Shown here piece by piece: positions 25,122-63,660 of a stretch of DNA of 64,000 nt. The number at the start of each line of letters is the position of its first letter. Within the stretch, counting starts at the first letter, position 1. The position numbers and the translations under genes are program-made. Under the pieces are notes generated by a model. The model searched no databases. It had not been told where the DNA came from and was given only the letters and a program-made list of their open reading frames with translations. Source of the DNA: a virus (taxonomy: Duplodnaviria > Heunggongvirae > Uroviricota > Caudoviricetes); IMG/VR virus record IMGVR_UViG_3300028805_000047. The stretch is one strand, 5' to 3'.

Positions 25122-25490
25122 ATGGAAAATTTACAAACATTTAAAGGTTTCATTAATGAAGCTTCATCAATGAATAATGAAAATAATATAGAATTTGAAA
25201 GAGAGTACTGCAGTAAGGATGAAAAATTCAGATATCAGTTACTAAGCCGTATGCAGAGCGATTGCGAATACGCCCTTGGTAATGGCAGAATATATGGAAA
25301 TCATTTCTGGGCTGGTAACGAAAAAGAACAAATTCGTGATATGATGTCATTATGGTTGTCACTTAATGATAAGCCTGAATGGTTGTCACTTGATCAAATA
25401 AATAATTATTCAAAAGAAATGACAGGAAAATCACTTACTGAACTTGGATATGATTTTGAGGGCTTGAAAAAAGAATATAATCAAGTTTAA
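25122..25490 (+). CDS. Small protein carrying the N-terminal CTS-like module (MENLQTFKGFINEASS)
   Basis: Shares the N-terminal module with the DUF285-repeat proteins; TATAAATA box at about 25091. Confidence 0.5.
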   Translation: MENLQTFKGFINEASSMNNENNIEFEREYCSKDEKFRYQLLSRMQSDCEYALGNGRIYGNHFWAGNEKEQIRDMMSLWLSLNDKPEWLSLDQINNYSKEMTGKSLTELGYDFEGLKKEYNQV

Positions 25491-25516
25491 AACAATTTTT
25501 ATCTAAAATACTTCAA

Positions 25517-25554
25517 AACAACCCTGTCAGAAACGTCAGGGTTGTTTTATTTTT
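25517..25554 (+). terminator. Rho-independent terminator (conserved hairpin AACAACCCTG...CAGGGTTGTT, copy 1)
   Basis: 10-bp stem, 10-nt loop, TTTTATTTTT tail. Confidence 0.85.
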
Positions 25555-25625
25555 AGGGATTAGCAACAATATTTCCATAAATGTTGTTTATTATATTTAC
25601 TTAATTAATATTAAAATTAACAGTT

Positions 25626-26417
25626 ATGGTTATTGACAATTTTGAAAAAATTAAACCTATTTTAAAATGGGACACAAAAGATGATTTCTATCATGTAATG
25701 ATAATGCAGCGTCCAAAGGAGACTGGTATTCAAAGAGTAGTCAAACAGTTCATCGTCAAGGAAGGTGATTTAGACAAACTTCATGATAGAATCATTGAGT
25801 ATTGTAAAACTTACAATGCACGTGCATATATCAATCCAAATCGAAAGAGTTTCAAGAATACGACATTGACGACTATACAAAATTTGACAACGTGTGTGAT
25901 TAAGGAAGACTATAGTGGCGTTCAAGACAAGTTCTTTTCAGCATGCGGACAAATTGGGTCTAACTACAAGAAAATTTTTGTCATAGACATTGATTGCAAG
26001 GATGAAGCACTTATTTCTGAAGTTCATGACTACGTAAATACCTTGATGCCAAATCCCGGAGAAGATAAAATCATTCTAAGGGTTGACACAAAGAATGGTG
26101 TTCATTTGTTGTCCAGTCCATTCAATCCTGATGAATTAAAAAACAAATACAATATCGATGTGCACAAGAATAACTTCACATTGCTATACTTTGAATATGA
26201 AGATTTGAACGAGTTTTTGAAAAATGGAAACAAGCTAGAATTGATAGGAATTATTCGTAAAAGATGTGAAAATGAATTTGGCCTTAAAGAAACTAAATCA
26301 TTGATTGATTATTACGAAGAATGCAATTTAGATTTAAACAATTTATTTAATAAGGCAGCTATAGAAACGGCTATTGATGAAATGTGGAAATATTTTGAAA
26401 GTAAAATAAGCAAATAG
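25626..26417 (+). CDS. Hypothetical protein (263 aa); weak hints of an archaeo-eukaryotic-primase-like core
   Basis: 'KIFVIDIDCKDE' (DxD-like) followed by 'NGVHLLSS' (sxH-like). Speculative. Confidence 0.4.
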   Translation: MVIDNFEKIKPILKWDTKDDFYHVMIMQRPKETGIQRVVKQFIVKEGDLDKLHDRIIEYCKTYNARAYINPNRKSFKNTTLTTIQNLTTCVIKEDYSGVQDKFFSACGQIGSNYKKIFVIDIDCKDEALISEVHDYVNTLMPNPGEDKIILRVDTKNGVHLLSSPFNPDELKNKYNIDVHKNNFTLLYFEYEDLNEFLKNGNKLELIGIIRKRCENEFGLKETKSLIDYYEECNLDLNNLFNKAAIETAIDEMWKYFESKISK

Positions 26418-26425
26418 TCAATATT

Positions 26426-26692
26426 ATGAAATTGAGAGATTTAAAGTATTTAATGTCTATTGTAGATAAAAGTATTGCTTCGTGTCGTAACAATATTTAT
26501 TGGTATGAACAGCAAGTAACATCAGCATCGAGAGATGAGTGTATTATTTTAAAAGACGGAAAGAAAAAACAAGAAGAAGAAATTCGTAAACTTAAACTTG
26601 TTCGTAAAGAAATAGATAGAGAAATATCACAAATAGCAATAAACGAAAAAATATTACAATTTAAAAAAAGACGAAAAAATGGTTGTAAATGA
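26426..26692 (+). CDS. Hypothetical charged protein (88 aa)
   Basis: ORF tiling. Confidence 0.4.
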   Translation: MKLRDLKYLMSIVDKSIASCRNNIYWYEQQVTSASRDECIILKDGKKKQEEEIRKLKLVRKEIDREISQIAINEKILQFKKRRKNGCK

Positions 26693-27956
26693 ATACTTTG
26701 ATATTCTAAATACTGTTAAACAAGCTATAAAGGGCAGCAGGTTTGAAGATAAGGTATATTCTGTCGGTGGATGTGAACGCGACAGGATATTAGGACGTCC
26801 TATTAAAGATATTGATTTTGCCGTAGAACTTCAAAATGGAGGTATAGACTTGGTGAAATTTTTATTTGAAAAAGATTACCTTGTCGGTGAACCTGTAATT
26901 TTTGAAAGATATGGAACTTGTAAGTTTTGTTTAAAAGATTTTCCTGAACATGATTTGGAGGCTGTTCAAACACGTAAGGAAAAATATACAGATTATAATT
27001 CAAGAAATCCTGAGACAGCTTTTGGAGAACTGAAGGATGATGCTATAAGGCGTGATCTTACAATAAACGCCATTTACAGAAATGTCTCGACTGATGAAAT
27101 TGTCGACATAACAGGAGGATTGGAAGATATTAAGAATAAGGTCATCAGAACTACATCGAATCCTGATTTTGTTTTTGATGATGATCCTTTACGGATATTA
27201 CGGGTTATCAGGTTTTCAACAGTACTTGGTTGGAAAATAAGTGATGATGTTTATGATTCCATAAAGAAGAATGCGGACAGATTGAGCATTATTTCACACG
27301 AAAGAATTATAGACGAGCTTGTAAAAATTCTGTCATCTGAAAATGCAAAATATGGATTTGAGCTTATTAACAGGACAAATTGCTTTTACAGGGTGTTCCA
27401 ATACATATATCCGGGTGTTGATTCAGAGAAAGAAAAATTGATTAAAAACTGTATAGAAGGTTCTGACTTGGTAAGTAATCTTGCAGCCGTATATGTCAAT
27501 ATATGCAGTTCAACCACTGCTAAAGAATGTATGAAGAACATGCATTTTGGAAATCATGTGATTTATGTAGTCGCAAGAATAATTGACAATGTTAATTATC
27601 TTATGGATTTGCCTGAAATATCTTGTGTTACGACAAGAAAAATGATGAGTAGGTTTGTAGACAAATATGACCAAATGCGGGCTGAACGTATAGCATTGAC
27701 AAAATTGCTTCATGAAGGCAATACTAAAATGTATAACAGAATATATAAGTATAGTCTGTCAAGTCATAAAGAGTTAAGGGATAAGACCTGGAATTATAAT
27801 AAGATACTGCCTGTAAATGGAGATGATATACGAAATACATTTAATGTAGAAGGCAGAAAAGTTGGGGAATATCTTAGAAAAGCTTCTGAACTTTATTATG
27901 AATTTCCAGATTCTGACAAAGACACATTATTGAATATGTTAAGTAAAAATGAATAA
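26679..27956 (+). CDS. tRNA nucleotidyltransferase (CCA-adding enzyme / poly(A) polymerase family, class II)
   Basis: Head-domain motifs 'VGGCERDRILGRPIKDIDFAV' (GG.vRD..LG..pkDiD) and 'RRDLTINAIY' (RRD.T.NA). Confidence 0.7.
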   Translation: MVVNEYFDILNTVKQAIKGSRFEDKVYSVGGCERDRILGRPIKDIDFAVELQNGGIDLVKFLFEKDYLVGEPVIFERYGTCKFCLKDFPEHDLEAVQTRKEKYTDYNSRNPETAFGELKDDAIRRDLTINAIYRNVSTDEIVDITGGLEDIKNKVIRTTSNPDFVFDDDPLRILRVIRFSTVLGWKISDDVYDSIKKNADRLSIISHERIIDELVKILSSENAKYGFELINRTNCFYRVFQYIYPGVDSEKEKLIKNCIEGSDLVSNLAAVYVNICSSTTAKECMKNMHFGNHVIYVVARIIDNVNYLMDLPEISCVTTRKMMSRFVDKYDQMRAERIALTKLLHEGNTKMYNRIYKYSLSSHKELRDKTWNYNKILPVNGDDIRNTFNVEGRKVGEYLRKASELYYEFPDSDKDTLLNMLSKNE

Positions 27957-27995
27957 TTATAAATATATCATAATAAAATAAACTTAAAAAAGATT

Positions 27996-28955
27996 ATGAA
28001 AAATTTACAGACTTTTAAGAGCTTCATCAATGAAGCTGCTTCAATAGAAAAAGGACCTGATGGAATGTATCATCCAAAAGATAGAGAGGGATTAGAAAGT
28101 ATTCTTAATCAGCTTATAAAAGAAAGAGGAAATGAGGGTGACTTCAATGATATTGATACGTCAGCAATTACTGATATGAATGGATTATTTTATCGTAATT
28201 GGGATTTTAATGGAAATATATCCAAATGGGATGTAAGCAATGTCACTAATATGCGTGGAATGTTTGAGTTTGCAACATCATTTAACCAACCTATTGGAAA
28301 TTGGAATGTTAGTAAAGTTACTGATATGAGTTCTATGTTTCAATGTGCCTATAATTTTAATCAAGATATATCCAGATGGAATGTAGGTAATGTTAAAAAT
28401 ATGGAAATGATGTTTACATGGACAACATCATTTAACCAACCTATTGGAAATTGGAATGTTAGTAAAGTTACTGATATGAGTCATATGTTTGAAAGAGCAG
28501 AATCATTTAATCAAGACATTTCAAAATGGAATACAGATAATATTACAAGTAAGGTGTATAGCATGTTTGAAAAATGTCCAATTAAGGATGAATATAAGTG
28601 CATATTTACAAAAATTAAAAATGAAATACCTGAAGATGATGACGATGATGAAGGTAGTATGAGTGATCAAGAACTTAAAGATTTATTTAGTAAGAAAGTA
28701 TATGGTGAAATGGAAGAGGATCCAGATCCAGTTGTTTTGAATGCAAAAACTGATGTATTTTGTGATGAGGGTGATATTGATTTTGATAAATGGATGGATA
28801 AACTAATTAGTACTGTTACGGACCGTTATGGAGATGATTTTACTGAAGAAGAGATGAAAAAAGCAGTTTATGCAGATAAAGAATTTTTAGACGATTTAAA
28901 AAGCGAGTATGAATCTTGTAAAGAAGCTTGTGAAGAAAATGATGAGGATTATTAA
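27996..28955 (+). CDS. CTS-module protein with DUF285/BspA-like ~26-residue repeats and an acidic C-terminus (319 aa)
   Basis: N-terminus 'MKNLQTFKSFINEAASIEKGPDGMYHPK...RGNEGDFNDIDTS', then repeats of the 'FNQPIGNWNVSKVTDMSxMF' type. TATAAATA box at about 27960. Confidence 0.6.
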   Translation: MKNLQTFKSFINEAASIEKGPDGMYHPKDREGLESILNQLIKERGNEGDFNDIDTSAITDMNGLFYRNWDFNGNISKWDVSNVTNMRGMFEFATSFNQPIGNWNVSKVTDMSSMFQCAYNFNQDISRWNVGNVKNMEMMFTWTTSFNQPIGNWNVSKVTDMSHMFERAESFNQDISKWNTDNITSKVYSMFEKCPIKDEYKCIFTKIKNEIPEDDDDDEGSMSDQELKDLFSKKVYGEMEEDPDPVVLNAKTDVFCDEGDIDFDKWMDKLISTVTDRYGDDFTEEEMKKAVYADKEFLDDLKSEYESCKEACEENDEDY

Positions 28956-29140: not shown

Positions 29141-29977
29141 ATGGAAAATTTAAAAACTTTCAAAAGTTTCATCAATGAAGCAGCTTCAATAGAAAAGAGT
29201 CAAGACGGAATGTATCATCCAAAAGATAAAGAGGAATTAGAAAGTATTCTCAATAAGCTTATAAAAGAAAGAGGTAATGAAGGTGACTTCAATGATATTG
29301 ATACATCAGCAGTTACTGATATGTCAGAGTTATTTTGGCATAAAACACTTTTTAATGGTGATATTTCTAAATGGAATACTAGTAATGTTACTAATATGGC
29401 TAATATGTTTGAGATGGCAAGATCTTTCAATCAACCTATTGGTAATTGGGACGTAAGCAGTGTTACAGACATGCATGAAATGTTTTTGCAAGCACAAAAA
29501 TTTAATCAAGACATTTCTAAATGGGATGTAAGTTTTGTAAGAAATATGGATGGTTTATTTTGTCTTGCAGAATCTTTCAATCAACCTATAGGTAATTGGA
29601 ACACAAGTAAAGTGACTAACATGGAAAGAATGTTTAATGGAGCAATTTCTTTTAATCAATCTATTGGAAATTGGAATACTAGTAATGTTACTAATATGGC
29701 TTCTATGTTTCATAATGCAAAAGCTTTTAACCAACCTATTGAAGGTTGGGATGTTAGCAATGTTACTAAAATGAATGATATGTTTTCAGGTACTGATTCT
29801 TTCAATCAAAACATATCTAAATGGGATACAAGTAAAGTTGTTAGTATGGTAGGTATGTTTTTGCGAGCAAAAGCTTTTAACCAAGATATCTCTAATTGGA
29901 ATGTAAAAGAAGTTAAAGATTCTGAAGATATATTTTATAATTGTCCAATCAAAGAAGAATTTAAGCCAAGATTTTAA
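29141..29977 (+). CDS. CTS-module protein with DUF285/BspA-like repeats (278 aa)
   Basis: 'MENLKTFKSFINEAASIEKSQDGMYHPK...' followed by about eight 'FNQ.I..W[DN][TV]S.V..M..MF' repeats. 'ttataaatatat' late box about 40 nt upstream. Confidence 0.6.
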   Translation: MENLKTFKSFINEAASIEKSQDGMYHPKDKEELESILNKLIKERGNEGDFNDIDTSAVTDMSELFWHKTLFNGDISKWNTSNVTNMANMFEMARSFNQPIGNWDVSSVTDMHEMFLQAQKFNQDISKWDVSFVRNMDGLFCLAESFNQPIGNWNTSKVTNMERMFNGAISFNQSIGNWNTSNVTNMASMFHNAKAFNQPIEGWDVSNVTKMNDMFSGTDSFNQNISKWDTSKVVSMVGMFLRAKAFNQDISNWNVKEVKDSEDIFYNCPIKEEFKPRF

Positions 29978-32535: not shown

Positions 32536-33390
32536 ATGCCAATACGAAAAGTACACGGTGGATATAAATTCGGCAAGGTCGGAAAAGTATATCGAACAAA
32601 GAAAAAAGCTGAAAAGCAGATGAGAGCAATGTATGCAAATGGTCTTGCTGAAGAAACCAAGGATCTTCCAACATTTAAAAATTTTATTAATGAATCTGAA
32701 GATGTTTCAAAATCATTTGAAGAACTTAAATCAGGTGACAAGCTTTATAGATGTAAACTTTATTTTGATTCTAATCACAATAAAGATTTAGGTATTCCTG
32801 ATTCTATAAAAGTTTGGACAATGACTGTTAGTATGGTAGGCTATTTTAATAATGAATTTCAAATAAGTTATGCATATGACACAGACAACTTTAAAGAAGC
32901 AATTAAAATACAAGATGCCTATGAAAGCTGTGATATGGAAGATGATAGTTCATTTATTGCAACTAGCATTGATGCATTGGTAAAAGGTGTTTCAAAAGTA
33001 TTTGGCAATAAAGTTGGTTCTAAAGTCTTAGTCAGTGCTAAAGATTCAGATACCGGTAATTCTAACACATTTGCAAGTCTTTCAACTGGTGATAAGTTTT
33101 ATGTATGGAAAGCAAATGACAGAGAGTACATATATGAATATACTTTTCAAGACATTGAAAAGGACAGATATGATGAGGTTTCTATAGTAGGCATTAATAG
33201 TTTTACAGGTCATGAAACATTCCCTTTGTCACAAGAGGAATTTCATAAGTCAATAGTAAAGATTGACGCAAATGGTAAAGATGTTGATTTGGATAACTAC
33301 AAAATTAGTGATTTAAAAACATTGATTTGTGTCGATAAAAATGAAATCCTTGATATTCTCAGAGCTTCTGAAAGCGATATTGTAAAATAA
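32536..33390 (+). CDS. Protein with a conserved 47-aa basic N-terminal module followed by an internal CTS-like motif (284 aa); paralog of 52369..53127
   Basis: 'MPIRKVHGGYKFGKVGKVYRTKKKAEKQMRAMYANGLAEETKDLPTFKNFINESED' is nearly identical over the first ~50 aa to the ORF at 52369, and the upstream ~30 nt are identical as well. Confidence 0.55.
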   Translation: MPIRKVHGGYKFGKVGKVYRTKKKAEKQMRAMYANGLAEETKDLPTFKNFINESEDVSKSFEELKSGDKLYRCKLYFDSNHNKDLGIPDSIKVWTMTVSMVGYFNNEFQISYAYDTDNFKEAIKIQDAYESCDMEDDSSFIATSIDALVKGVSKVFGNKVGSKVLVSAKDSDTGNSNTFASLSTGDKFYVWKANDREYIYEYTFQDIEKDRYDEVSIVGINSFTGHETFPLSQEEFHKSIVKIDANGKDVDLDNYKISDLKTLICVDKNEILDILRASESDIVK

Positions 33391-44971: not shown

Positions 44972-47900
44972 ATGGATGCATTATTATCTTTTAAAGATTT
45001 TTCTAAATCTGAACTATTAGAAAATCAATCTCAATACTATGATTCTCTTTTTAAAAAGATTAACATTTATACAAATAATGTCAGACTTGGTATAATTAAT
45101 GAAAATGCCAAATATATTGACAGAGATATTTATCTTATTGAAGAAGAGAAGCAAGTTGCTCATGATATTTTAATAATGCTCAAAGAGCAGTTGGTAAAAA
45201 CTGCTTATGAAAGATATGATATTGTTTTAGATGAAGGCTTGATTGACAGTACAAAGAATTTTGTCAATAAAGTAAAGAATAAAGCTCAAAATACCGTAAA
45301 TAACTTAAAAGATACAAAGTCCAAAATAACGACTGCATTCAATATGTTGCTTGAAGCCATTAAGAAAGGTTTTAAGACAATATCAGAATTATTAAAGTTT
45401 TTCAGAGAATGGCTGTTTGAAAAATTGAGCGATACGCTTAGTGACTCTATTGAAAAATTAGGCCTTATTGGTAAAGGTAAAAACGAATCTGAAAAAGAAA
45501 CAAATTCAATTTATAACGGTCCAATCAATGTAGGTACTGCAACCATTACTGAATCAAAAAATAAAGATGATGAAAAATCAGATAAAGAAGATCTTGCTAA
45601 TTCATTTAAGAAATATACTGAAAATATAAAGTCAGTAGAGATTGACAATAGTGAGCAAAGCAATGCTGACAATGGTTTGAAGAGAGAAGGTGAAAAAGAC
45701 TTTTTTGACGCCGTAGTCGCTGCTACAATGACCAAGGTTAAAGAAATTCCTGATGCTGACAAAGTTGAATTGAATGAAAGTGTATTTTCAGACCTTGTAA
45801 ATGGAATTAAGAATAATGACCTGTTTAGAAAATTTGCAAATAATGCATTTGTAAAGAAGATTCAAGGAAATAAAGTCGTTCGATTTTTGTCAATGATTTT
45901 AATTGGTATTGTTTCTTCAATAATTGTAACACAATGCTTGCCCGTTATTCTATCAGCTATCACACTGGCGCTTGGAGCAACAGCAGGCGGGACTTTGGTG
46001 ACATTGATTCCTATTGTATGTAGAATTATATGGTCATCAAGAGCAGTGCTTAAAGTATTTATTAACAGATATAAAGATTGGAAACATGTTAAAGAAACAG
46101 GTGAGGACAACAGCTTTATAACTGGTAAATTCTTACTTGACTTACTTGTTCAAATCGCCATACTTGCTGCAACAAATGTAATTCCGATGGGGACTATTTT
46201 AGGTAAGATTGGTGGATTTGTATCTAAAATACCATTTGTCGGCGATTTGGCAAAAACTGTCGGAACTGAAGTTGGATCATTTGTAGGTAAGTTTATCGGA
46301 GCAATCCAAGATTTACTATTAACTGCAACTGAAAAAACTTCAAGTGCCATTGTCGGACAGATTATACCTCAAGAGCAAGTACAAAAAATTGTTGCTGAGG
46401 CTTTCAGGAATTGCGGACTTGCAAACTGGTTTTCAAGTAAATTCAATTATGAATATACACATGAAGAAACTGTAACTCAAACAAAGAATTTGTCAAGTGA
46501 GGAACATGACGCAAAACAAAAGGAGATAGCTAAGAAAATGCGTGAAGATGCTTCAAATCCTGACCTTGATAAACAATTCCAAAAAGAATTCAGTAATTCA
46601 GGAACAAATGGGGCTCAGGCAAACTGTCCTACTGATGCCTTGACAGGTGATAATGAAAAATATGCAGATGTCGCGAAAAGTTTGAGAAATGAAATTGAAA
46701 AAGCTACAGGTGTAGACGGTATACATTTTATAGATAAGGACGGACTACCTGTCGTAGTTGACAATTCTGGAAATCCTATTACAGACAGAAGTATTCTTGA
46801 CAAAGTTCAGAATACTGTGTTGAACGGCAACGGTGGTCAAGGCTGGATTGGAAATGGAAAGGATCAGTTTCCAATAACTACAAGAAAAGCTGGAGGAGCG
46901 ATATTCAAAATTTGGGGTGGTGAAGCAAAAGAAACTATTTCTAAATTAGTTGCAGACACACTTGACGGAGATTTATTCCCTCTTGTATTTTCACCTTTCA
47001 AGAGATTCAAAGATAATGCGATATTGTTAAGCAAGTCAAATGCAAGTTACAGTAAAAAGTTCAGCGGTAATTTAGGTCGTGGAATGGTCGTTGAGATGAC
47101 ATTTAAAGAACTTAAAGAAAAAGCGACTAATACCAAATCGATTAGCGAACTTGAAACTTTATTTAAAAATTTGAAAAATAATGCCGAGACAAGGGTTGAA
47201 AGCGATAAAGAGGCATTTGAAAAAGTAGACAAGATAAATTATGATGACAACAAGCTTCTTGTAATGTATGCAAAAGTTGAAGATGAGAATGTACCTTTCT
47301 TTGCATTCTCATATGATGCAATGAAACTTATTGACTGCTATAAAATGCCTGAAGGAACATCTAAGACAAGTAAGGAACGTACGGAAGTTATGAATGTAGA
47401 AGGCTTGTTCTCCCATTTGAATATAGTTCCTGAAGAAAAACACGACACTGAAGTAAAGGATAAGATATTTGATATGCTTGCCTTATATCTTCAGAAGGCT
47501 GCAGTCACAATGACACGAAAATATTATTTGCCTATTGTCAAAGACGGTGAAAAATTCGTACCTGTCAAAGAAGCAGGTGATACTTCCACTCTTACTGAAT
47601 TATACGGTATGTCTCTTGACAGAATTTGTGAAATTTTGAACTCTAACAAGGAAACTGCCGACGGTGAATTTAGAAGTTTGACAAATACAATATTCTCAGG
47701 TATCAATAACGAAAATGATCCTACTATTGAGAAAGAGAAAACTTATGTAAAGGATAATATTATTCCAATGCTTTCAGAGGATACGTTCTTGTCAAAAATG
47801 ATTAAGGAAGATCCTAAATACCGTAGGTTGAAAAAATGGCTTTATGACGATGATGGTAATTTCAATAAAGATGTAATTGACAAAGATGTCGAAAGCAAGC

Positions 47901-48553
47901 TTTATAGAATAATGACATCTTATTCTGATGATACTACAAGAAGTTGGAAAGACTTATTTAAGAATCTTGATGACAAGAAAATCAAGTCATTAAATATAAA
48001 GGCATTGGATGAAAATATATGGAATAACAAAAGTAAGATTAAGAAAGGTGCAAAAGAACTTGAAAATAATAAAGAGATTGAAAAAGAGCCTGAACATAAA
48101 CTTAAAGAAATCAAATCTTCTGAAAAGCGTTCAACGACATTTATCAGTAATATGATAAAACGTTTTGATGTTGATGAAAAGAAATCTGACATACATAAGG
48201 CATTTGTAAAACAAGCTATGAAAGATTGTGAGTCCTTGTATAAGGATGGAAATCTTAATGAAGAGATTTTAAGAGACAAATATATTGCTGCAGCGCTTAC
48301 AAGAATATTCAATTCTAAAAAATATCGTACAGATGAAAATTTTGATGAAGTAGCTAAGAAGAGAATAAGTCGTGCTGTGAACCTGTCAAGTTTTAAAGAC
48401 GAAGGTGATAAGCTGAAAGAAAGTCTTTTCAATGCATATAAACTTATTAAAGATAAGAAAATATCAAATGAGTATAGAGGATTGAAAGAAGGCTTGTATG
48501 GCAATCTTATGACATTTAATGAATTTATTAATGAGTGCTGTTTTCCTTTCTGA
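44972..48553 (+). CDS. Large virion-associated protein (1193 aa) with hydrophobic transmembrane-like segments and long charged coiled-coil regions; possibly a tape-measure or ejection protein
   Basis: Late boxes upstream. Hydrophobic stretch 'FLSMILIGIVSSIIVTQCLPVILSAITLALGATAGGTLVTLIPIVC' and a glycine-zipper region. No enzymatic motif recognised. Confidence 0.5.
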   Translation: MDALLSFKDFSKSELLENQSQYYDSLFKKINIYTNNVRLGIINENAKYIDRDIYLIEEEKQVAHDILIMLKEQLVKTAYERYDIVLDEGLIDSTKNFVNKVKNKAQNTVNNLKDTKSKITTAFNMLLEAIKKGFKTISELLKFFREWLFEKLSDTLSDSIEKLGLIGKGKNESEKETNSIYNGPINVGTATITESKNKDDEKSDKEDLANSFKKYTENIKSVEIDNSEQSNADNGLKREGEKDFFDAVVAATMTKVKEIPDADKVELNESVFSDLVNGIKNNDLFRKFANNAFVKKIQGNKVVRFLSMILIGIVSSIIVTQCLPVILSAITLALGATAGGTLVTLIPIVCRIIWSSRAVLKVFINRYKDWKHVKETGEDNSFITGKFLLDLLVQIAILAATNVIPMGTILGKIGGFVSKIPFVGDLAKTVGTEVGSFVGKFIGAIQDLLLTATEKTSSAIVGQIIPQEQVQKIVAEAFRNCGLANWFSSKFNYEYTHEETVTQTKNLSSEEHDAKQKEIAKKMREDASNPDLDKQFQKEFSNSGTNGAQANCPTDALTGDNEKYADVAKSLRNEIEKATGVDGIHFIDKDGLPVVVDNSGNPITDRSILDKVQNTVLNGNGGQGWIGNGKDQFPITTRKAGGAIFKIWGGEAKETISKLVADTLDGDLFPLVFSPFKRFKDNAILLSKSNASYSKKFSGNLGRGMVVEMTFKELKEKATNTKSISELETLFKNLKNNAETRVESDKEAFEKVDKINYDDNKLLVMYAKVEDENVPFFAFSYDAMKLIDCYKMPEGTSKTSKERTEVMNVEGLFSHLNIVPEEKHDTEVKDKIFDMLALYLQKAAVTMTRKYYLPIVKDGEKFVPVKEAGDTSTLTELYGMSLDRICEILNSNKETADGEFRSLTNTIFSGINNENDPTIEKEKTYVKDNIIPMLSEDTFLSKMIKEDPKYRRLKKWLYDDDGNFNKDVIDKDVESKLYRIMTSYSDDTTRSWKDLFKNLDDKKIKSLNIKALDENIWNNKSKIKKGAKELENNKEIEKEPEHKLKEIKSSEKRSTTFISNMIKRFDVDEKKSDIHKAFVKQAMKDCESLYKDGNLNEEILRDKYIAAALTRIFNSKKYRTDENFDEVAKKRISRAVNLSSFKDEGDKLKESLFNAYKLIKDKKISNEYRGLKEGLYGNLMTFNEFINECCFPF

Positions 48554-52368: not shown

Positions 52369-53127
52369 ATGCCAATACGAAAAGTACATGGAGGATATAA
52401 ATTCGGCAAGGTCGGAAAAGTATATCGAACAAAGAAAAAAGCTGAAAAACAAATGCGAGCAATGTATGCACATGGATTAGCTGAAGAGACCAAGGACCTG
52501 CCGACATTCAGTGCCGTAATAAATGAAGAAATTAATCCGCAAGTAGTAAATCATTCTTGGCAAGTATCTGATTTTATGAGAGGTGCTGAGCAAATTGATA
52601 AAAGTTTAACCGATTTGGTTGATAGTTTCTTGAATAATTTTGTCAATAAAATTTTTACATATTACTCACAGCAGGCTGATTTAAATGACAGTGATAAAAT
52701 TATAACGCCAATTGTCATAAGCCTTAATTCAGTAAGTTCTAAAAAACAATCAAAACCATTTGAAATCGTCATCGATTCAAATTATGAAGAACCATTATTA
52801 AATGATGGAAAGTACGGCCTTAGTGAAAAAACACGGTTTGTAAAAATAGATCAAGAAGATGATTATAAAACACTAGTCGGTAATATAATCTATTCTGATA
52901 GTGCGACAATGGAAACACTTGGTAAATTTTACTTTAATAAATTTTCACTCGGCCAGTCTTTTGTAATATCTATTAGAAATGAAGAAGGTGAAGGAACTCA
53001 ATATGCAAAACAGGCATTTGATTCAGGATGTAATGCAAATAATGGCATTATAGAATTTACTTTGAACAATTATCCTGATTTTGCTGAACTTGCTAATAAG
53101 TTTATAAATTCATTGAATACGTTATAA
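52369..53127 (+). CDS. Paralog of 32536..33390: conserved basic 47-aa N-terminal module with a divergent C-terminus (252 aa)
   Basis: 'MPIRKVHGGYKFGKVGKVYRTKKKAEKQMRAMYAHGLAEETKDLPTF...'. About 170 nt including the upstream leader are ~90% identical to 32505..32680. Confidence 0.55.
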   Translation: MPIRKVHGGYKFGKVGKVYRTKKKAEKQMRAMYAHGLAEETKDLPTFSAVINEEINPQVVNHSWQVSDFMRGAEQIDKSLTDLVDSFLNNFVNKIFTYYSQQADLNDSDKIITPIVISLNSVSSKKQSKPFEIVIDSNYEEPLLNDGKYGLSEKTRFVKIDQEDDYKTLVGNIIYSDSATMETLGKFYFNKFSLGQSFVISIRNEEGEGTQYAKQAFDSGCNANNGIIEFTLNNYPDFAELANKFINSLNTL

Positions 53128-53131: not shown

Positions 53132-53521
53132 ATGGAAAATTTAAAAACTTTCAACAGCTTCATCAATGAAGCAGCTTCACTCGAAAAGGGACCTGATGGA
53201 ATGTATCATCCTAAATACAAGTTTGAGCTTAAAGCTCTTATGGAACAGTTGATAAAGAAAAGAGGTAATAGAGGTGATTTCAATGATATTGATACATCAA
53301 CCATTACTGATATGAGTGAATTATTTAAGTATAATAAAGAATTTAATGGAGATATTTCTAAATGGAATACAAGCAATGTCAAAGTCATGAAAGATATGTT
53401 CTTTAAAGCAGAAAAGTTTAATAGAGACATATCTCAATGGGATACAAGTAAAGTCACTGACATGAGTAATATGTTTGATGATTGTCCAATAAAAGAGGAA
53501 TATAAACCAAAATTCAAATAA
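53132..53521 (+). CDS. Short CTS-module protein with two or three DUF285-like repeats (129 aa)
   Basis: 'MENLKTFNSFINEAASLEKGPDGMYHPK...GDFNDIDTS...NGDISKWNTSNVKVMKDMF'. Confidence 0.55.
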   Translation: MENLKTFNSFINEAASLEKGPDGMYHPKYKFELKALMEQLIKKRGNRGDFNDIDTSTITDMSELFKYNKEFNGDISKWNTSNVKVMKDMFFKAEKFNRDISQWDTSKVTDMSNMFDDCPIKEEYKPKFK

Positions 53522-57762: not shown

Positions 57763-58884
57763 ATGATAAGCATTGAAAACAATGATTGGAAAGTTTGTCT
57801 TACAGAAAGTTATGACGGCTATAATCAGATAAGTTTTGTAAATGGAGTAGAAACAACAGATGGAGGAACACATGTAGACTATGTAATAAATGAAATTATT
57901 AAAAAATATAAAGCCTTGTTTGATAAGAAGAACAAGTGCAATGTTCCCCGTTCGCTAATTATTCTTAATTTTTTCATATTCATCAGTGCGACTGTAAAGA
58001 ATCCAAAATTCAGCTCGCAGACAAAGACTAAATTGGTTTCATCTTCTTCAGACTTCTATAATCCTATTGAAATTACTGACAAGTTCATAAAGGAATTATA
58101 TAAGTCAGAGATAACAAACCTTTTACTTGACATGCTTGCAAAGAAGAACGAGGCTGATGAACGGACGTCGCTCAGAAAACTTAATTCACAGCTGAAACGG
58201 CTTTCAGTAAAGAAACTTGTCGACTGCTCTCTTGCTGGAAAGGACAATATCAATACAAGCCTTTCAATAACTGAAGGTGATTCTGCGTCTGCAGGTTTCA
58301 GGAAATTCAGATCTGCCAAGACACAAGCTTTATATCCTATAAGGGGTAAATTATTGAATGTCAGATGTGCGAATAATTCCAAAATATACGCATCTGAAGA
58401 ACTGAAAGGAATTATGTCAGCTATGGGGCTTAAAATAGGCGAAGATCCGTTTAAGGATGGAAAATGCTCGCTCAGGATTGGTGAAATTAGAATATACTCT
58501 GATGCTGATACAGATGGCTCGCATATTGCTGGACTTATTTTGAATTTCGTCGCAAAATACTGGCCGTCGATGATAAAGAACCACAGACTTGCAAGAGTCA
58601 ATACACCGATTATAAAAGCGACAAATACAAAAAACAAATCTGAACAATACAGGTTTTACTACTTAAATGAATATAAGGAATGGGAAAAGACACATCAGGC
58701 TTCAAAGTATGCGATAGAATACTACAAGGGCCTTGGTGCACTTGACGACAAAGAATATCAAGAAATCGTTCAGAATCCGAATATCTATTATTATGAGTTG
58801 GATGATGTATATGAGGAGGAATTGGATATTTGGTTTGGTGACGACGCGGATAAAAGAAAGGAAAAAATGTCAAAAACAATTTAA
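57763..58884 (+). CDS. Type II topoisomerase ATPase-subunit fragment: C-terminal transducer and TOPRIM domains only (GyrB / T4 gp39-gp60-like); the GHKL ATPase domain is not encoded here
   Basis: 'NPKFSSQTKTKLVSS' (E. coli GyrB 'DPKFSSQTKDKLVSS'), 'SITEGDSASAGFRKFRSAKTQALYPIRGKLLNV' (TOPRIM EGDSAGG...PL+GKILNV) and 'IYSDADTDGSHIAGL'. The ORF begins mid-transducer ('SFVNGVETTDGGTHV'). Confidence 0.8.
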   Translation: MISIENNDWKVCLTESYDGYNQISFVNGVETTDGGTHVDYVINEIIKKYKALFDKKNKCNVPRSLIILNFFIFISATVKNPKFSSQTKTKLVSSSSDFYNPIEITDKFIKELYKSEITNLLLDMLAKKNEADERTSLRKLNSQLKRLSVKKLVDCSLAGKDNINTSLSITEGDSASAGFRKFRSAKTQALYPIRGKLLNVRCANNSKIYASEELKGIMSAMGLKIGEDPFKDGKCSLRIGEIRIYSDADTDGSHIAGLILNFVAKYWPSMIKNHRLARVNTPIIKATNTKNKSEQYRFYYLNEYKEWEKTHQASKYAIEYYKGLGALDDKEYQEIVQNPNIYYYELDDVYEEELDIWFGDDADKRKEKMSKTI

Positions 58885-61097: not shown

Positions 61098-61118
61098 TTT
61101 GAAAATTTTCTAATGATT

Positions 61119-61147: not shown

Positions 61148-61229
61148 ATTTACCTTAACAAATTAAATAACAGAGTTAAACAAATAATTATAAATATATC
61201 ATAATATAAGTTAAGCCTTAAAAAAGATT

Positions 61230-62072
61230 ATGGAAAATTTAAAGACTTTTAGAAGTTTCATCAATGAAGCAGCTTCAATAGAAAAAGGTTCTGACGGAAT
61301 ATATCACCCTCAAAATAAAGAAGAATTAAAATCACTTATTAAACAGCTTATAGAAGAAAGAGGTTATGAAGGTGATTTTAATGATATAGATACATCTGCA
61401 TTGACTGATTTTAGAGGTGTGTTCTATGAAATGAAATCTTTTAATGGTGACATTTCCAAATGGAATGTTAGTAATGCTACAGATATGTATGGCATGTTTC
61501 AACGGGCAGAAAGTTTCAATAGAGATATATCTAAATGGAATGTGAGTAAAGTACGAGAGATGGGATGTATGTTCTGTGATGCCTATGCTTTCAATCAACC
61601 TATAGGTGGTTGGGATGTACATAATGTGTTCGATATGGCATATATGTTCTGTAATGCTAAAAATTTTAATCAAGACCTCAATTCATGGAATCTTGACAGT
61701 GCTGATATGGTTAACGGTATGTTTAAAGGAGCTACACATTTTAATCAAGACTTGAATAAATGGAATATGTCTAAAATACATTCTACACATGCTATGTTTG
61801 CCTATGCAGAAAACTTTAATGGTGATATATCTACATGGGATGTTCGTCGAGTTGAAGACATGCATGACATGTTTCTTCATGCAATAGAATTTAACGGAGC
61901 AATTGGAAATTGGAATGTGTCAAATGTAAAAACAATGGTTGGAATGTTTGCGTATGCGAAGTGCTTTAACCAAGACTTGAGAGACTGGAATATTGACAAT
62001 GTAAAATACTACAATTATATGTTTGAAGGTTGTTCTATTAAAGATGTGTACAAGCCTAAGTTCAAAAACTAA
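61230..62072 (+). CDS. CTS-module protein with DUF285/BspA-like repeats (280 aa)
   Basis: 'MENLKTFRSFINEAASIEKGSDGIYHPQ...GDFNDIDTS', then about eight 'FN.DIS.WNVS.V..M..MF' repeats. Confidence 0.6.
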   Translation: MENLKTFRSFINEAASIEKGSDGIYHPQNKEELKSLIKQLIEERGYEGDFNDIDTSALTDFRGVFYEMKSFNGDISKWNVSNATDMYGMFQRAESFNRDISKWNVSKVREMGCMFCDAYAFNQPIGGWDVHNVFDMAYMFCNAKNFNQDLNSWNLDSADMVNGMFKGATHFNQDLNKWNMSKIHSTHAMFAYAENFNGDISTWDVRRVEDMHDMFLHAIEFNGAIGNWNVSNVKTMVGMFAYAKCFNQDLRDWNIDNVKYYNYMFEGCSIKDVYKPKFKN

Positions 62073-62122: not shown

Positions 62123-62151
62123 TTGACTTTTCTAAATACAATCTATATATT
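62123..62151 (+). promoter_or_regulatory. Near-consensus sigma70 promoter TTGACT-N17-TATATT in an otherwise non-coding 250-bp region
   Basis: Exact 17-nt spacer, followed by two stem-loops (62204..62220 and 62224..62258) and no ORF until 62323. Confidence 0.45.
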
Positions 62152-62157
62152 GCAAAT

Positions 62158-62262
62158 ATGAAAAGTAGTTGATGAGTCTTACATAGGTGAGATAGTCAAT
62201 AGAGGCTGGTTGTTCCAGCCGGTAAAGTTTAGAAATCTGTATCAAATTCCTAAACTTTATAA
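62158..62262 (+). ncRNA. Candidate small structured RNA (about 100 nt) downstream of the sigma70-like promoter
   Basis: Hairpins GGCTGG-ttgtt-CCAGCC and AAAGTTTAG-17 nt-CTAAACTTT. No coding potential. A 3' U-tract is not clean. Confidence 0.25.
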
Positions 62263-62322
62263 ATAAATTCGTATAATTGGTAATAATTTTAATAGGATTT
62301 AGAACATTTTAATATAAAAATT

Positions 62323-63282
62323 ATGGAAAATTTAAAAACTTTCAGAAATTTCATCAATGAAGCAGTTTCAATAGAAAAAGGTACTGATGGTATGTATCAT
62401 CCTAAAAGTAAAGATGAGCTTGAAGCACTTATAGAACAGTTGATAAGTGAAAGAGGTAATGAAGGTGATTTCAATGACATTGACACTTCTCTTGTCACAG
62501 ACATGAACTACTTGTTCTTTCAGAAGAATGACTTCAACGGTGACATAAGCAAGTGGGACACTAGCAATGTCACAGACATGAGTGCGATGTTCTGCCAATG
62601 TGACAAGTTCAACTGTGACATCTCTGGCTGGGACACTAGCAATGTCACGAACATGAACTCAATGTTCACTTGGTGCAAAGAGTTCAACCAAGACATCAGC
62701 AACTGGAACACAAGGAATGTGAAGAGCATCTCAAACATGTTCTTCAGAGCAGAGAAGTTCAATCAGCCAGTCGGAAAGTGGGACACGGGGAATGTCAAAG
62801 ACATGAGCCACACATTTGAGTATGCGCTATCTTTCAATCAAGACTTGAGCAAGTGGAGCACGAAGAAAGTGAAGACTATGGAGAAGATGTTCTATGAAGC
62901 GAAAGCGTTCAACAGCGATGTGACAACTTGGGACACTAAGAATGTGAAAGATTTCAACGGAATGTTCTGTGGAGCAAGCTCTTTCAATCAAGACATAAGT
63001 AAGTGGAACACAAGCAAAGCGATTGACATGTGTGGAATGTTCTGCAATGCAACTTCTTTCAACCAAGACATCTCTTGTTGGGACACGAGCAATGTAGAAG
63101 GCGTCTATGAGATGTTCTGGGGAGCAAAAAGCTTTGATCAAGACTTGAGCGGATGGAAGCTTGAGAAAGTCGATAGCTGGATTGACAAGATGTTTGACCA
63201 CGACTACAAGAACGGAATGCCACGCAAATATGTCGAGATGAGTGGAGCTTTCATGAACATGTTCAAAAATCTTCGAAGATAA
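62323..63282 (+). CDS. CTS-module protein with DUF285/BspA-like repeats (319 aa); chimeric, with an AT-rich native N-terminal module and a GC-richer repeat body
   Basis: 'MENLKTFRNFINEAVSIEKGTDGMYHPK...GDFNDIDTS', then repeats. From about 62480 codon usage switches to C/G-ending codons (AAC, AAG, TTC, GAC, ATC), unlike every other gene in the window. Confidence 0.6.
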   Translation: MENLKTFRNFINEAVSIEKGTDGMYHPKSKDELEALIEQLISERGNEGDFNDIDTSLVTDMNYLFFQKNDFNGDISKWDTSNVTDMSAMFCQCDKFNCDISGWDTSNVTNMNSMFTWCKEFNQDISNWNTRNVKSISNMFFRAEKFNQPVGKWDTGNVKDMSHTFEYALSFNQDLSKWSTKKVKTMEKMFYEAKAFNSDVTTWDTKNVKDFNGMFCGASSFNQDISKWNTSKAIDMCGMFCNATSFNQDISCWDTSNVEGVYEMFWGAKSFDQDLSGWKLEKVDSWIDKMFDHDYKNGMPRKYVEMSGAFMNMFKNLRR

Positions 63283-63318
63283 TTAAAGAAGAATATAAAC
63301 CTCATTTTAATTAAAATT

Positions 63319-63660
63319 ATGGAATTTAAGACATTCAATACATTTATAAACGAATCATCTAAACATATGAAAACTTTTGCAGAACTTAAAAGAGGTAATT
63401 ACATTTATTACTATTCAGGTAACTTAAAAGCAGCTAAGCAGCTTAGATTCAAAAAACTAGAAGGTAAAAATCTATTTTTTACTTTCGACGGTGAAGAGTT
63501 TTATTTTAGTATTAAAGATGTTGATACAGGAGTTTGTGCAAACCTTAACACAAGGACAATGATTAAACGACGTTATATCATTTGTACCGATAAAACTGAA
63601 TTCATTGAACGACTTAGTAAAATAGGTGTCAATATTACAGACAAAGACATTATAAAATAA
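63319..63660 (+). CDS. Small protein with a CTS-like N-terminus (MEFKTFNTFINESS) (113 aa)
   Basis: N-terminal motif similarity; followed by a bidirectional terminator. Confidence 0.45.
   Translation: MEFKTFNTFINESSKHMKTFAELKRGNYIYYYSGNLKAAKQLRFKKLEGKNLFFTFDGEEFYFSIKDVDTGVCANLNTRTMIKRRYIICTDKTEFIERLSKIGVNITDKDIIK

What the first reader, a model, noticed from the sequence alone, without database searches (positions are those of the whole stretch)
25122..63660. Expanded family of proteins carrying a T4-like capsid-targeting sequence (CTS), suggesting a large packaged and injected cargo set
At least seven ORFs (25122, 27996, 29141, 53132, 61230, 62323, 63319) begin with M-E-N-L-K-T-F-K-S-F-I-N-E-A-A-S. 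Six of them extend the shared N-terminus to about 55 aa (…GMYHPK…RGNEGDFNDIDTS). The core K-T-F-x-x-F-I-x-E-A parallels the T4 internal-protein CTS as I recall it (MKTYQEFIAE|A), which directs proteins into the prohead and is removed by gp21 at I/L-x-E. This phage has a gp21-like protease and a gp23-like capsid. Several of these genes are preceded by TATAAATA late boxes, as expected for packaged proteins. In T4 such cargo includes the anti-restriction protein IPI, so this could be a diversified arsenal of injected effectors, far larger than T4's three internal proteins.
Basis: partly seen in the sequence, partly recalled or inferred. Interest (0 to 1): 0.85.

Follow-up and report, generated by a model that had tools for sequence, protein, structure and literature searches.

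The report
T4-style capsid-targeting leaders on phage cargo genes
A giant phage puts the same short N-terminal tag, nearly identical to the one phage T4 uses to load proteins into its head, on at least nine unrelated proteins, which suggests a large set of proteins that is packaged with the DNA and probably injected into the host.

Summary
Seven + strand ORFs start with M-[EK]-N-L-[KQ]-T-F-x-x-F-I-N-E-[AS]. Only five of them, not six, share the ~55-aa N-terminus. Residues ~20-60 of that stretch are the normal N-cap of the DUF285 fold, so the true leader is about 13-16 aa.

I found more members:
- Two ORFs (32536, 52369) carry the motif at the end of a shared 54-aa basic propeptide.
- A 1193-aa ORF ends with the motif.

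The cargo bodies are unrelated to each other: five DUF285/BspA-like solenoids, one LPD11 domain and three unknowns. Homologues of the LPD11 protein elsewhere lack the leader.

The window comes from a jumbo myophage of at least 255 kb. It encodes a Peptidase_S77 (T4 gp21 family) protease-scaffold fusion and a gp23-type capsid protein. TATAAATA boxes precede these head genes and most leader genes.

The leader keeps all four residues that were mapped as functional in the T4 CTS. It matches annotated T-even internal head proteins at 9 of 10 positions (MKTFKEFINEA).

Similar leader families are widespread:
- About 20 genes in huge phage LR756500, including LRR proteins.
- Arrays inside the head modules of marine phage contigs.

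The motif is N-terminal in 96 of 119 viral hits but in only 4 of 75 cellular hits.

Verdict: a prohead-targeting, protease-cleaved leader is well supported by sequence analysis. Packaging and injection remain untested. I class it as a new variant of a known kind.

The parts
25122..25490 (+). Leader (MENLQTFKGFINE|A) fused to an LPD11 domain. Predicted mature protein: 109 aa, pI 4.8.
   Evidence: PF18824, E 7.9e-25. Nine homologues of 81-107 aa elsewhere lack the leader. AlphaFold: leader pLDDT ~55, domain >90. TATAAATA at 25095.
27996..28955 (+). Leader (MKNLQTFKSFINE|A) + DUF285 solenoid + very acidic C-terminal tail. Predicted mature protein: 306 aa, pI 4.3.
   Evidence: PF03382, E 3.5e-67. 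Sequence. TATAAATA at 27958.
29141..29977 (+). Leader (MENLKTFKSFINE|A) + DUF285 solenoid.
   Evidence: PF03382, E 9.5e-96. Closest homologues are BspA-type surface proteins of marine Flavobacteriaceae/Bacteroidota. TATAAATA at 29103.
53132..53521 (+). Leader + short DUF285 protein (129 aa).
   Evidence: PF03382, E 3.2e-27. AlphaFold: residues 1-15 are a low-confidence detached helix, residues 20-129 have pLDDT >90. Upstream box is TATAAATT, a near-match.
61230..62072 (+). Leader + DUF285 solenoid.
   Evidence: PF03382, E 8.3e-80. TATAAATA at 61189. The ~60-nt upstream region is shared with 27996 and 29141.
62323..63282 (+). Leader + DUF285 solenoid.
   Evidence: PF03382, E 1.7e-95. TATAAATA at 62258.
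63319..63660 (+). Leader variant (MEFKTFNTFINE|S) + 101-aa basic body of unknown function (pI 9.6).
   Evidence: Weak similarity to the body of ORF 32536. No Pfam or PHROG family.
32536..33390 (+). Class B member: a 54-aa propeptide made of a basic module (MPIRKVHGGYKFGKVGKVYRTKKKAEKQMRAMYA) followed by DLPTFKNFINE|S, then a 231-aa acidic body.
   Evidence: The basic module matches phrog_31267. TATAAATA at 32492.
52369..53127 (+). Class B member: the same basic module followed by DLPTFSAVINE|E, then an unrelated body.
   Evidence: The first ~45 aa are almost identical to ORF 32536 and the rest is unrelated.
44972..48553 (+). 1193-aa protein with a hydrophobic central region. It ends in the motif (LMTFNEFINE|CCFPF; motif at 48512-48535). 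Possible C-terminal propeptide.
   Evidence: TATAAATA at 44943 and 44952. C-terminal processing by gp21 is known for T4 Alt (PMC9026906).
2120..3904 (+). Prohead protease fused to a scaffold region (594 aa). Tandem 17-aa repeats (nt 3082-3371) each carry AYSKMISE|N.
   Evidence: Peptidase_S77, E 2.6e-13. phrog_207. Sequence. Tandem repeat. Motif hits. TATAAATA at 2063.
4002..5681 (+). gp23-type major capsid protein. Its N-terminal region carries W12-G-K-L-I-E-E|S, which fits the same motif.
   Evidence: PF07068, E 6.8e-15. Sequence. The same site appears in relatives (GKWAPIIES.TGI in L028/L072, NWGAQITESTGI in PTm1). TATAAATA at 3920 and 3973.

Best explanation
The 13-16-residue leader is a capsid-targeting sequence of the T4 type.

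Proposed mechanism:
1. The tagged genes are transcribed late from TATAAATA promoters, together with the protease-scaffold and capsid genes.
2. The short amphipathic leader, with aromatic residues at positions 7 and 10, docks the protein onto the scaffold core of the assembling prohead.
3. The gp21-family (Peptidase_S77) protease then cuts after Glu13 (F-I-N-E|A/S). This is the same hydrophobic-x-x-hydrophobic-I-x-E site that recurs in the scaffold repeats and in the capsid protein N-terminus.
4. The leader peptide leaves the head. The mature cargo stays inside and is ejected with the DNA.

Predicted cargo: five DUF285 solenoids of 14-36 kDa, one LPD11 protein, and bodies of unknown function. 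The repeat-protein cargo most likely acts by binding host proteins early in infection, in defence evasion or takeover.

Status of each step:
- Shown here: the motif, its modularity, its match to authentic T-even internal-protein leaders, the protease and capsid families, and the shared promoter box.
- Inferred: docking, cleavage, retention, injection and effector function.
For: 1. The leader sits on at least three unrelated body types, with synonymous codon variation in the leader. LPD11 homologues elsewhere lack it.
2. The invariant positions F7, F10, I11 and E13 correspond to T4 CTS Y4, F7, I8 and E10, the residues mapped for targeting and processing.
3. The same 10-mer occurs in annotated internal head proteins of T4 relatives G8 and MP1.
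4. The genome encodes an S77 protease fused to a scaffold and a gp23-type capsid protein. The scaffold repeats and the capsid N-terminus carry the same I-x-E motif. The relaxed motif occurs 25 times against 6.9±2.6 expected, and the strict motif 9 times against 0.17.
5. 19 of 23 TATAAATA boxes lie 12-74 nt upstream of a same-strand ORF. These ORFs include the protease, the capsid gene, five class A leader genes, ORF 32536 and ORF 44972.
6. The nearest GenBank relative, LR756500, has about 20 ORFs starting MK[YF]I..Y..F[ILV].E with unrelated bodies, including LRR and DUF2201 proteins. Its invariant positions are the same four.
7. In marine contigs L028 and L072, 5-6 leader genes sit inside the portal / protease-scaffold / capsid module.
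8. The leader is virus-specific. 96 of 119 IMG/VR hits are at ORF N-termini, against 4 of 75 hits in 596 Gb of bacterial and archaeal genomes.
9. LPD11 comes from polyvalent proteins that are predicted to be injected with DNA (PMC5512222).
10. AlphaFold places the leader as a detached low-confidence helix.
Against: - No virion proteome exists for this phage or for any relative I could find. The MA9V-1 paper reports SDS-PAGE only.
- The mature cargo is mostly acidic (pI 4.3-5.3), whereas T4 IPI-III are basic.
- The protease match to S77 is distant, and its specificity is inferred from motif recurrence rather than measured.
- The 25-kb head region of cultured relative PTm1 has no such leader genes.
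- Some leader-bearing proteins in IMG/VR look like ordinary enzymes, for example cytidylyltransferase-like proteins.
- A window-type protease or capsid gene lies near the leader gene in only 12 of 124 loci. That is about what chance gives for ~150-kb genomes.
- Class B and the C-terminal copy place the motif away from the N-terminus.
Confidence: 0.7

Rival explanations
1. The shared N-terminus is only a by-product of recent gene duplication and recombination. A promoter-plus-5'-end cassette is copied with each new paralogue and the peptide itself has no function.
For: Five of the genes are DUF285 paralogues with 62-66% identity. Genes 27996, 29141 and 61230 share a ~60-nt upstream region. Conserved flanks are known to drive module shuffling in T4-like phages (PMC4122927, listed).
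Against: The leader also heads non-homologous bodies: LPD11, ORF 63319 and the class B bodies. It shows synonymous variation under a fixed peptide. The same four invariant positions recur in a distant phage whose leader otherwise differs. The leader also occurs in T-even internal proteins. Recombination may well spread the cassette, but that does not explain the residue pattern.
Confidence: 0.08
2. The leader is a phage-specific N-terminal tag with a function other than capsid loading. Examples are targeting to another assembly (tail, baseplate, head surface fibres), control of protein stability, or enhancement of translation initiation in AT-rich late mRNAs.
For: The cargo is acidic and unlike the T4 internal proteins. 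Some tagged proteins in viral contigs look enzymatic. PTm1-type phages carry head fibres (PMC10537231). Co-location with protease genes is not above chance overall.
Against: The conserved residues are exactly the T4 targeting and cleavage residues, ending in I-x-E followed by a small residue. The same motif recurs in the scaffold and in the capsid propeptide, which are protease substrates by homology. A translation effect would not need the fixed F..FI.E pattern. Leader genes sit inside head modules in L028 and L072.
Confidence: 0.17
3. The leader is a secretion or lipoprotein signal. On this view the DUF285 proteins are exported to the host surface, as their bacterial homologues are.
For: The closest DUF285 homologues are BspA-type surface proteins, many with a T9SS C-terminal domain (PF18962) or lipoprotein-like N-termini.
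Against: The leader has no hydrophobic core, no lipobox and no twin-arginine motif (sequence). The phage copies lack the T9SS C-terminal domain. The pattern is essentially absent from N-termini in 596 Gb of cellular genomes.
Confidence: 0.02

Closest known systems
Phage T4 internal proteins IPI, IPII, IPIII and Alt, with their capsid targeting sequence (CTS, MKTYQEFIAE) processed by gp21
   Same: Short N-terminal leader. Aromatic residues at the two targeting positions. I-x-E followed by a small residue at the cleavage site. An S77-family protease and a gp23-type capsid protein in the same genome. TATAAATA boxes upstream. Unrelated cargo behind one tag.
   Different: Three extra residues precede the KTF core. 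There are at least nine tagged genes in 64 kb, against three IPs plus Alt in T4. The cargo is mostly acidic repeat proteins rather than small basic proteins. The protease is fused to the scaffold. The phage is a jumbo phage of at least 255 kb outside the Straboviridae, probably infecting Bacteroidota.
Polymorphic internal head protein genes of T4 relatives (for example Escherichia phage G8 gp264 and Morganella phage MP1 gp258)
   Same: The leader MKTF[KQ]EFINEA matches the window core KTFKSFINEA at 9 of 10 positions.
   Different: These are single small genes at the ipI locus of ~165-kb T4-like genomes. The bodies are unrelated to DUF285 or LPD11.
Ejection and inner-body proteins of giant phages phiKZ, 201phi2-1 and SPN3US, cleaved by a gp21-like prohead protease
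   Same: Jumbo phages with many head-internal proteins, paralogue families, and cleavage after x-x-E by a gp21-related protease (PMC5694885).
   Different: Their propeptides are mostly long (>100 aa), differ between proteins and end in A/S-x-E. Here a short, uniform, T4-like tag is reused. Capsid similarity places the window with the PAU / PTm1 / LR756500 group rather than with phiKZ-like phages.
Phage P1 DarB N-terminal capsid targeting signal
   Same: An N-terminal signal that is sufficient to load an anti-restriction protein, and a reporter, into the head (PMC9024508).
   Different: I saw no sequence resemblance. According to the paper, P1 lacks a separate scaffold system, and the system is defined for a single 250-kDa cargo.
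Polyvalent proteins and solo LPD domains (Iyer et al. 2017)
   Same: ORF 25122 carries LPD11, a domain from proteins predicted to be delivered with invading DNA.
   Different: Here LPD11 is a solo domain behind a CTS-like tag, not part of a multidomain giant protein. A fold search gave no functional clue.
BspA / DUF285 (PF03382) surface repeat proteins of Bacteroidota and Mycoplasma
   Same: Five of the cargo proteins are clear members, with E values from 1e-27 to 1e-96, and include the usual N-cap and the C-terminal CPIKEEYKP cap.
   Different: The phage copies have swapped the signal peptide for the CTS-like leader and lack the T9SS sorting domain.

Membership tests
T4-type capsid targeting sequence (CTS) | Located within the first ~10-20 residues of the precursor | tested here: met
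   Seven ORFs carry the motif at residues 5-14. Two class B ORFs carry it at residues 43-54, and one ORF carries it at its C-terminus.
T4-type capsid targeting sequence (CTS) | Aromatic residue at CTS position 4 and Phe at position 7 (targeting determinants) | tested here: met
   F7 and F10 are invariant in 7 of 7 window leaders. Y7 and F10 are invariant in 20 of 20 LR756500 leaders. Mapping is from PMC9026906.
T4-type capsid targeting sequence (CTS) | Ile/Leu at P3 and Glu at P1, followed by a small residue (gp21 cleavage site) | tested here: met
   I11-N12-E13 followed by A (6 ORFs) or S (1 ORF).
T4-type capsid targeting sequence (CTS) | A gp21-family prohead protease and a scaffold core encoded by the same phage | tested here: met
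   ORF 2120-3904 matches Peptidase_S77 (E 2.6e-13) and phrog_207, and has a C-terminal repeat-rich scaffold region.
T4-type capsid targeting sequence (CTS) | Precursor is incorporated into proheads and the leader is removed; mature protein is present in virions | not testable with these tools
   This needs virion mass spectrometry. I found no proteome for this phage or its relatives.
T4-type capsid targeting sequence (CTS) | Leader alone suffices to package a foreign protein | not testable with these tools
   This needs a fusion experiment. Indirect support: the same leader occurs on unrelated natural bodies.
T4 internal proteins (IPI-III) | Small, highly basic mature proteins | tested here: not met
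   Mature cargo is 12-36 kDa, and six of nine have pI 4.3-5.3. Only ORF 63319 (pI 9.6) and ORF 53132 (pI 8.0) are basic. The genes are therefore not IP homologues; only the tag is shared.
T4-type late promoter | TATAAATA box shortly upstream of late (structural) genes | tested here: met
   19 of 23 boxes lie 12-74 nt upstream of a same-strand ORF, including the protease and capsid genes. The overall count, 23 against 14.7±4.3 expected, is only weakly enriched.
T4-type late promoter | gp55/gp33-type late transcription factors encoded by the phage | not tested
   None was identified among the window ORFs that I scanned. The rest of the genome (at least 255 kb) was not available.
DUF285 / BspA-like repeat proteins (PF03382) | Pfam match above the gathering score | tested here: met
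   Five ORFs score 95-316 bits against a cut-off of 25.
LPD11 (PF18824) | Pfam match above the gathering score | tested here: met
   ORF 25122 scores 87.2 bits against a cut-off of 27.
Sec / lipoprotein signal peptide | Hydrophobic core of 7-15 residues followed by a signal peptidase site or lipobox | tested here: not met
   The leader MENLKTFKSFINEAAS is charged and amphipathic, with no hydrophobic run. By contrast, P0038 and P0018 begin MKKILLLSVLIIFSCS and MKRIVLFVYFTCTLFSCS.

The most novel reading that the evidence does not exclude
A conserved, computable tag (aromatic-x-x-F-[ILV]-x-E near the N-terminus) marks the head-packaged and injected protein set of a large, mostly uncultivated group of phages with gp21-type protease-scaffold fusions. 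In jumbo and huge phages this set has expanded into arsenals of repeat-protein binders: DUF285 in this phage and LRR proteins in LR756500. These binders were captured from host surface proteins and retargeted into the capsid to neutralise host factors at the moment of DNA entry. If so, injected effectors could be read directly from metagenomes.
Probability: 0.35. Interest if true: 0.8.

Novelty: new variant of a known kind. Interest (0 to 1): 0.62.

Why it matters
- Proteins injected with phage DNA act before any phage gene is expressed. They are a favoured place for anti-defence and takeover functions, as with T4 IPI and Alt. They are very hard to predict from sequence.
- If this short tag marks them, it gives a simple rule for listing candidate injected proteins in jumbo phages and in thousands of uncultivated phage contigs.
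- It points to an unexpected cargo class: solenoid binders copied from host surface proteins.
- It also suggests that the T4 protein-packaging trick used in biotechnology could be carried over to phages of Bacteroidota.

Tried and rejected
- **Near-identical DNA in GenBank phages:** none found.
- **tblastn with the first 50 aa against GenBank phages:** nothing significant.
- **Specific leader pattern in IMG/VR and JGI metagenome contigs:** it did not recover the source genome or any DUF285-plus-leader relatives, only other leader families.
- **Genome-wide count of tagged genes:** not possible. Only about 8 kb upstream and 10 kb downstream of the window could be fetched.
- **Test for enrichment of window-type protease or capsid genes near leader genes in IMG/VR loci:** 12 of 124 loci, about the chance level, so I make no enrichment claim.
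- **Cultured relative PTm1:** no leader genes in its 25-kb head region. I did not scan the rest of that genome.
- **Virion proteomics for relatives:** only an SDS-PAGE gel for MA9V-1.
- **Function of LPD11:** a Foldseek search of a good AlphaFold model against the PDB gave no hit with E < 1.
- **Function of ORFs 63319, 32536, 52369 and 44972:** no convincing Pfam or PHROG family.
- **A second cleavage site at L-I-x-E|RG (residues 40-43) in the DUF285 proteins:** considered and set aside. It lies in a confidently folded cap helix, and ORF 53132 lacks the Glu.

Full report
**1. What is in the sequence**

The window has 30.3% G+C. Seven + strand ORFs begin with a near-identical peptide:

| ORF | N-terminus |
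|---|---|
| 25122 | MENLQTFKGFINEASS |
| 27996 | MKNLQTFKSFINEAAS |
| 29141 | MENLKTFKSFINEAAS |
| 53132 | MENLKTFNSFINEAAS |
| 61230 | MENLKTFRSFINEAAS |
| 62323 | MENLKTFRNFINEAVS |
| 63319 | MEFKTFNTFINESSK |

- The codons differ at synonymous sites, so it is the peptide that is conserved.
- A profile built from the leader found no further N-terminal copies in six-frame translations. It did flag two other copies: an internal one in ORF 32536-33390 (residues 43-54) and a copy at the very C-terminus of the 1193-aa ORF 44972-48553 (LMTFNEFINECCFPF).
- A homology search then showed that ORF 52369-53127 shares its first ~45 residues with ORF 32536 and continues with DLPTFSAVINEE. After that the two proteins are unrelated.
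- There are therefore two leader classes. Class A is a 13-16-aa tag at the N-terminus (7 genes). Class B is a 54-aa propeptide made of a basic module followed by the tag (2 genes). There is also one C-terminal copy.
- In a crude set of 72 genes, the strict motif [TSP][FY]xx[FY]IxE occurs 9 times against 0.17 expected from residue shuffles. A relaxed form occurs 25 times against 6.9±2.6.

**2. What the tagged proteins are**

- Five are DUF285/BspA-like repeat proteins (PF03382, E 1e-27 to 1e-96). ORF 25122 is an LPD11 domain (PF18824, E 8e-25). ORF 63319 and the two class B bodies match no family.
There are five. Residues ~20-60 are not leader. They are the usual N-cap of this DUF285 subfamily and also occur in homologues that have quite different N-termini (P0063, P0022).
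- AlphaFold of ORF 53132 agrees. Residues 1-15 form a detached helix with pLDDT below 50, and residues 20-129 form one domain with pLDDT above 90.
- The closest DUF285 homologues are surface proteins of marine Flavobacteriaceae and other Bacteroidota. They carry signal or lipoprotein N-termini and often a T9SS sorting domain. The phage copies have the tag instead and lack the sorting domain.
- Nine LPD11 homologues from other sources are 81-107 aa long and start directly with the domain. The tag has therefore been grafted on here.
- LPD11 was defined in polyvalent proteins that are predicted to be injected with invading DNA (PMC5512222). A fold search with a good model of the protein gave no functional hint.
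- After the predicted cut, the cargo proteins are 12-36 kDa and mostly acidic (pI 4.3-5.3), apart from ORF 63319 (pI 9.6) and ORF 53132 (pI 8.0).

**3. The phage**

- The window encodes a tail sheath, a gp25-like protein, and a 594-aa protein with an N-terminal Peptidase_S77 (T4 gp21 family) domain followed by a repeat-rich scaffold-like region. It also encodes a gp23-type major capsid protein, UvsX, a split topoisomerase II, SbcD and other genes.
- The exact proteins occur on a 255,141-bp metagenomic contig.
- By capsid protein, the nearest GenBank records are the 462-kb uncultured phage LR756500.1 (33% identity), Tenacibaculum phages PTm1/PTm5/pT24, Sphingomonas phage PAU, Chryseobacterium phages and the Lak phages.
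- This is therefore a jumbo myophage, not a member of the T4 family proper. Its host is probably in the Bacteroidota. The evidence is the source of its DUF285 genes and the hosts of its relatives.

**4. Does the tag behave like the T4 CTS?**

- The T4 CTS is MKTYQEFIAE (PMC8442874). Amber-suppressor mapping places targeting at residues 4 and 7 and processing at residues 8 and 10. gp21 cuts after L/I-x-E (PMC9026906).
- Aligned with an offset of three, the window leader has F7, F10, I11 and E13 followed by A or S. These are invariant in all seven copies.
- A degenerate DNA pattern for [KQ]TFxxFINE[AS] was run against IMG/VR. In 96 of 119 matches a Met lies within six residues upstream, so the motif sits at an ORF N-terminus, and the downstream sequences are unrelated to one another.
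- Two of those loci are cultured T4 relatives, Escherichia phage G8 and Morganella phage MP1. In both, the match is the start of the gene annotated 'internal head protein' at the classical ipI position, next to dNMP kinase, 57B, RNA ligase and the tRNA cluster. The G8 leader MKTFKEFINEA differs from the window core at one position.
- As a control, the same pattern found 75 matches in 596 Gb of bacterial and archaeal genomes. Nearly all are in short or out-of-frame stretches, and only 4 are N-terminal; one of those is identical to a viral protein. A longer, window-specific pattern found none. The tag is thus a virus-specific N-terminal module.

**5. Consistency within the phage**

- The scaffold part of the protease gene holds a 51-nt tandem repeat of 5.7 copies. 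Each copy encodes AYSKMISE|N. The capsid protein has W12-G-K-L-I-E-E|S.
- The capsid site is conserved in relatives: GKWAPIIES.TGI in L028 and L072, and NWGAQITESTGI in PTm1.
- The expected protease substrates therefore carry the same hydrophobic-x-x-hydrophobic-I-x-E pattern as the tag.
- TATAAATA occurs 23 times, against 14.7±4.3 expected. 19 of the 23 lie 12-74 nt upstream of a same-strand ORF. These ORFs include the protease-scaffold gene, the capsid gene, five class A genes, ORF 32536 and ORF 44972. This fits joint late expression. I did not identify the transcription factors involved.

**6. Relatives**

- I fetched 458 kb of LR756500.1. About 20 ORFs begin MK[YF]I..Y..F[ILV].E and have unrelated bodies.
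- The invariant positions are again 7 (Y), 10 (F), 11 (I/L/V) and 13 (E).
- The bodies include classical LRR proteins and a DUF2201 metallopeptidase/VWA protein.
- Just upstream of the window, the source contig has one more class A-like gene (MKNKFLTFKEYIVEAA...). It also has internal copies of the motif in a DUF2201_N protein and in a MoxR-like/DUF285 protein.
- Marine contigs L028 and L072 show this gene order: portal, leader gene, phrog_207 protease-scaffold (605 and 637 aa), leader gene (in L072), capsid protein. Each has 5-6 leader genes inside or beside the head module.
- Other contigs (L124-L126) carry tandem arrays of small genes that each start MKNLQTF.EF[ILV]NE.

**7. Interpretation**

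The simplest reading is that this is the T4 capsid-targeting system, reused on a larger scale and with different cargo. I put 0.7 on a prohead-targeting, protease-cleaved leader, and roughly 0.5 on the cargo being injected effectors.

Points against:
- There is no proteomic evidence.
- The cargo is acidic.
- The protease match is distant, and its specificity is inferred only.
- No leader genes occur in the PTm1 head region.
- Some tagged proteins in viral contigs look like ordinary enzymes.
- There is no statistical excess of nearby protease genes across loci.

Rivals:
- A pure duplication artefact is unlikely. The bodies are unrelated, and the same four positions are fixed in a leader family whose other positions differ.
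- A secretion signal is excluded by composition.
- A different function for the tag remains possible (0.17).

**8. Novelty**

- The T4 CTS, CTS-like leaders on variable proteins in T4 relatives, and cleaved head-internal proteins in phiKZ-like giants are all known.
- In the searchable literature I found no description of the following:
  - a short uniform T4-like tag used by jumbo and huge phages of the PAU / PTm1 / LR756500 group or by the marine phages with protease-scaffold fusions;
  - DUF285 or LRR solenoids as tagged cargo;
  - the class B composite leader.
- I therefore rate it a new variant of a known kind, of moderate to high interest.

Noticed in passing
window 32536-32655 and 52369-52488: The basic N-terminal module MPIRKVHGGYKFGKVGKVYRTKKKAEKQMRAMYA (phrog_31267) is widespread. 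It has 183 representative proteins at E<=0.001. Most are 45-130 aa long. It also heads unrelated proteins of 226-875 aa, one of which has a NUDIX-like region. Its function is unknown. Here it precedes the CTS-like motif.
   Followed up: partly
LR756500.1 (loci L131, L136-L144), e.g. ORFs starting at 13446(+), 181730(-), 199531(-), 332545(-), 313912(-), 15898(-), 125087(-): Many leader-bearing proteins of this huge phage also share a C-terminal motif (...NADDFGFFDN, ...NADDFGLI, ...NSSDFGFFDN). Both ends of otherwise unrelated proteins are therefore conserved. This could be a second sorting or processing signal.
   Followed up: no
window 43569-44822 (+): A TnpB-like gene (OrfB_IS605 plus the Cas12f1-like TNB domain, also phrog_506 transposase) sits between tail-fibre-like genes and the 1193-aa ORF. 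A 92-aa ORF lies just upstream (43287-43565).
   Followed up: partly
window 3082-3371: A 51-nt tandem repeat (5.7 copies, 86% matches) lies inside the protease-scaffold gene. It encodes 17-aa units, each with an I-S-E site. The protease and scaffold form one 594-aa polypeptide, as in PTm1, where the gene is annotated 'prohead core scaffolding protein and protease'.
   Followed up: partly
window 28590-28955 (C-terminal third of ORF 27996): This DUF285 cargo protein ends in a ~120-aa extremely acidic tail (EDDDDDEGS...EENDEDY), giving a mature pI of 4.3. The composition recalls DNA-mimic anti-restriction proteins. That resemblance is speculation from memory and was not tested.
   Followed up: no
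L134:1-4430 (source contig, about 4-8 kb upstream of the window): A MoxR-like AAA (AAA_5, faint) / DUF285 protein of more than 857 aa and an 810-aa DUF2201_N protein lie beside the neck and sheath genes. Both contain internal copies of the motif (KPFSQFLKES and LLTFYQFINES). In LR756500 the DUF2201 protein carries the leader at its N-terminus.
   Followed up: partly
L124 (Ga0210003_1003072), L125, L126: Marine metagenome contigs carry tandem arrays of 4-8 small genes that each start MKNLQTF.EF[ILV]NE and have unrelated bodies. They lie next to cell-wall hydrolase and glycosyltransferase genes.
   Followed up: partly
window 15606-16955 and 57763-58884: Topoisomerase II-like pieces are encoded about 41 kb apart: a phrog_551 topoisomerase II match in the first ORF, and GyrB and Toprim domains in the second. 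The window also has a tRNA nucleotidyltransferase gene (26679-27956), but no tRNA gene was found in the window.
   Followed up: no
window 31611-32417, 50197-51594, 8151-10472(-): Unusual accessory genes are present: an SPFH/Band 7 protein, a TupA-like ATP-grasp enzyme next to a glycosyltransferase, and a 772-aa RimK/ATP-grasp protein.
   Followed up: no
window, upstream of 25122, 27996, 29141, 61230 and 62323: The bases just before these five start codons are A/T-rich (AAAAGATT, AAAGGTT, AAAAATT) with no AGGAGG-like Shine-Dalgarno. This fits a Bacteroidota host, as do the Flavobacteriaceae-like DUF285 genes.
   Followed up: no
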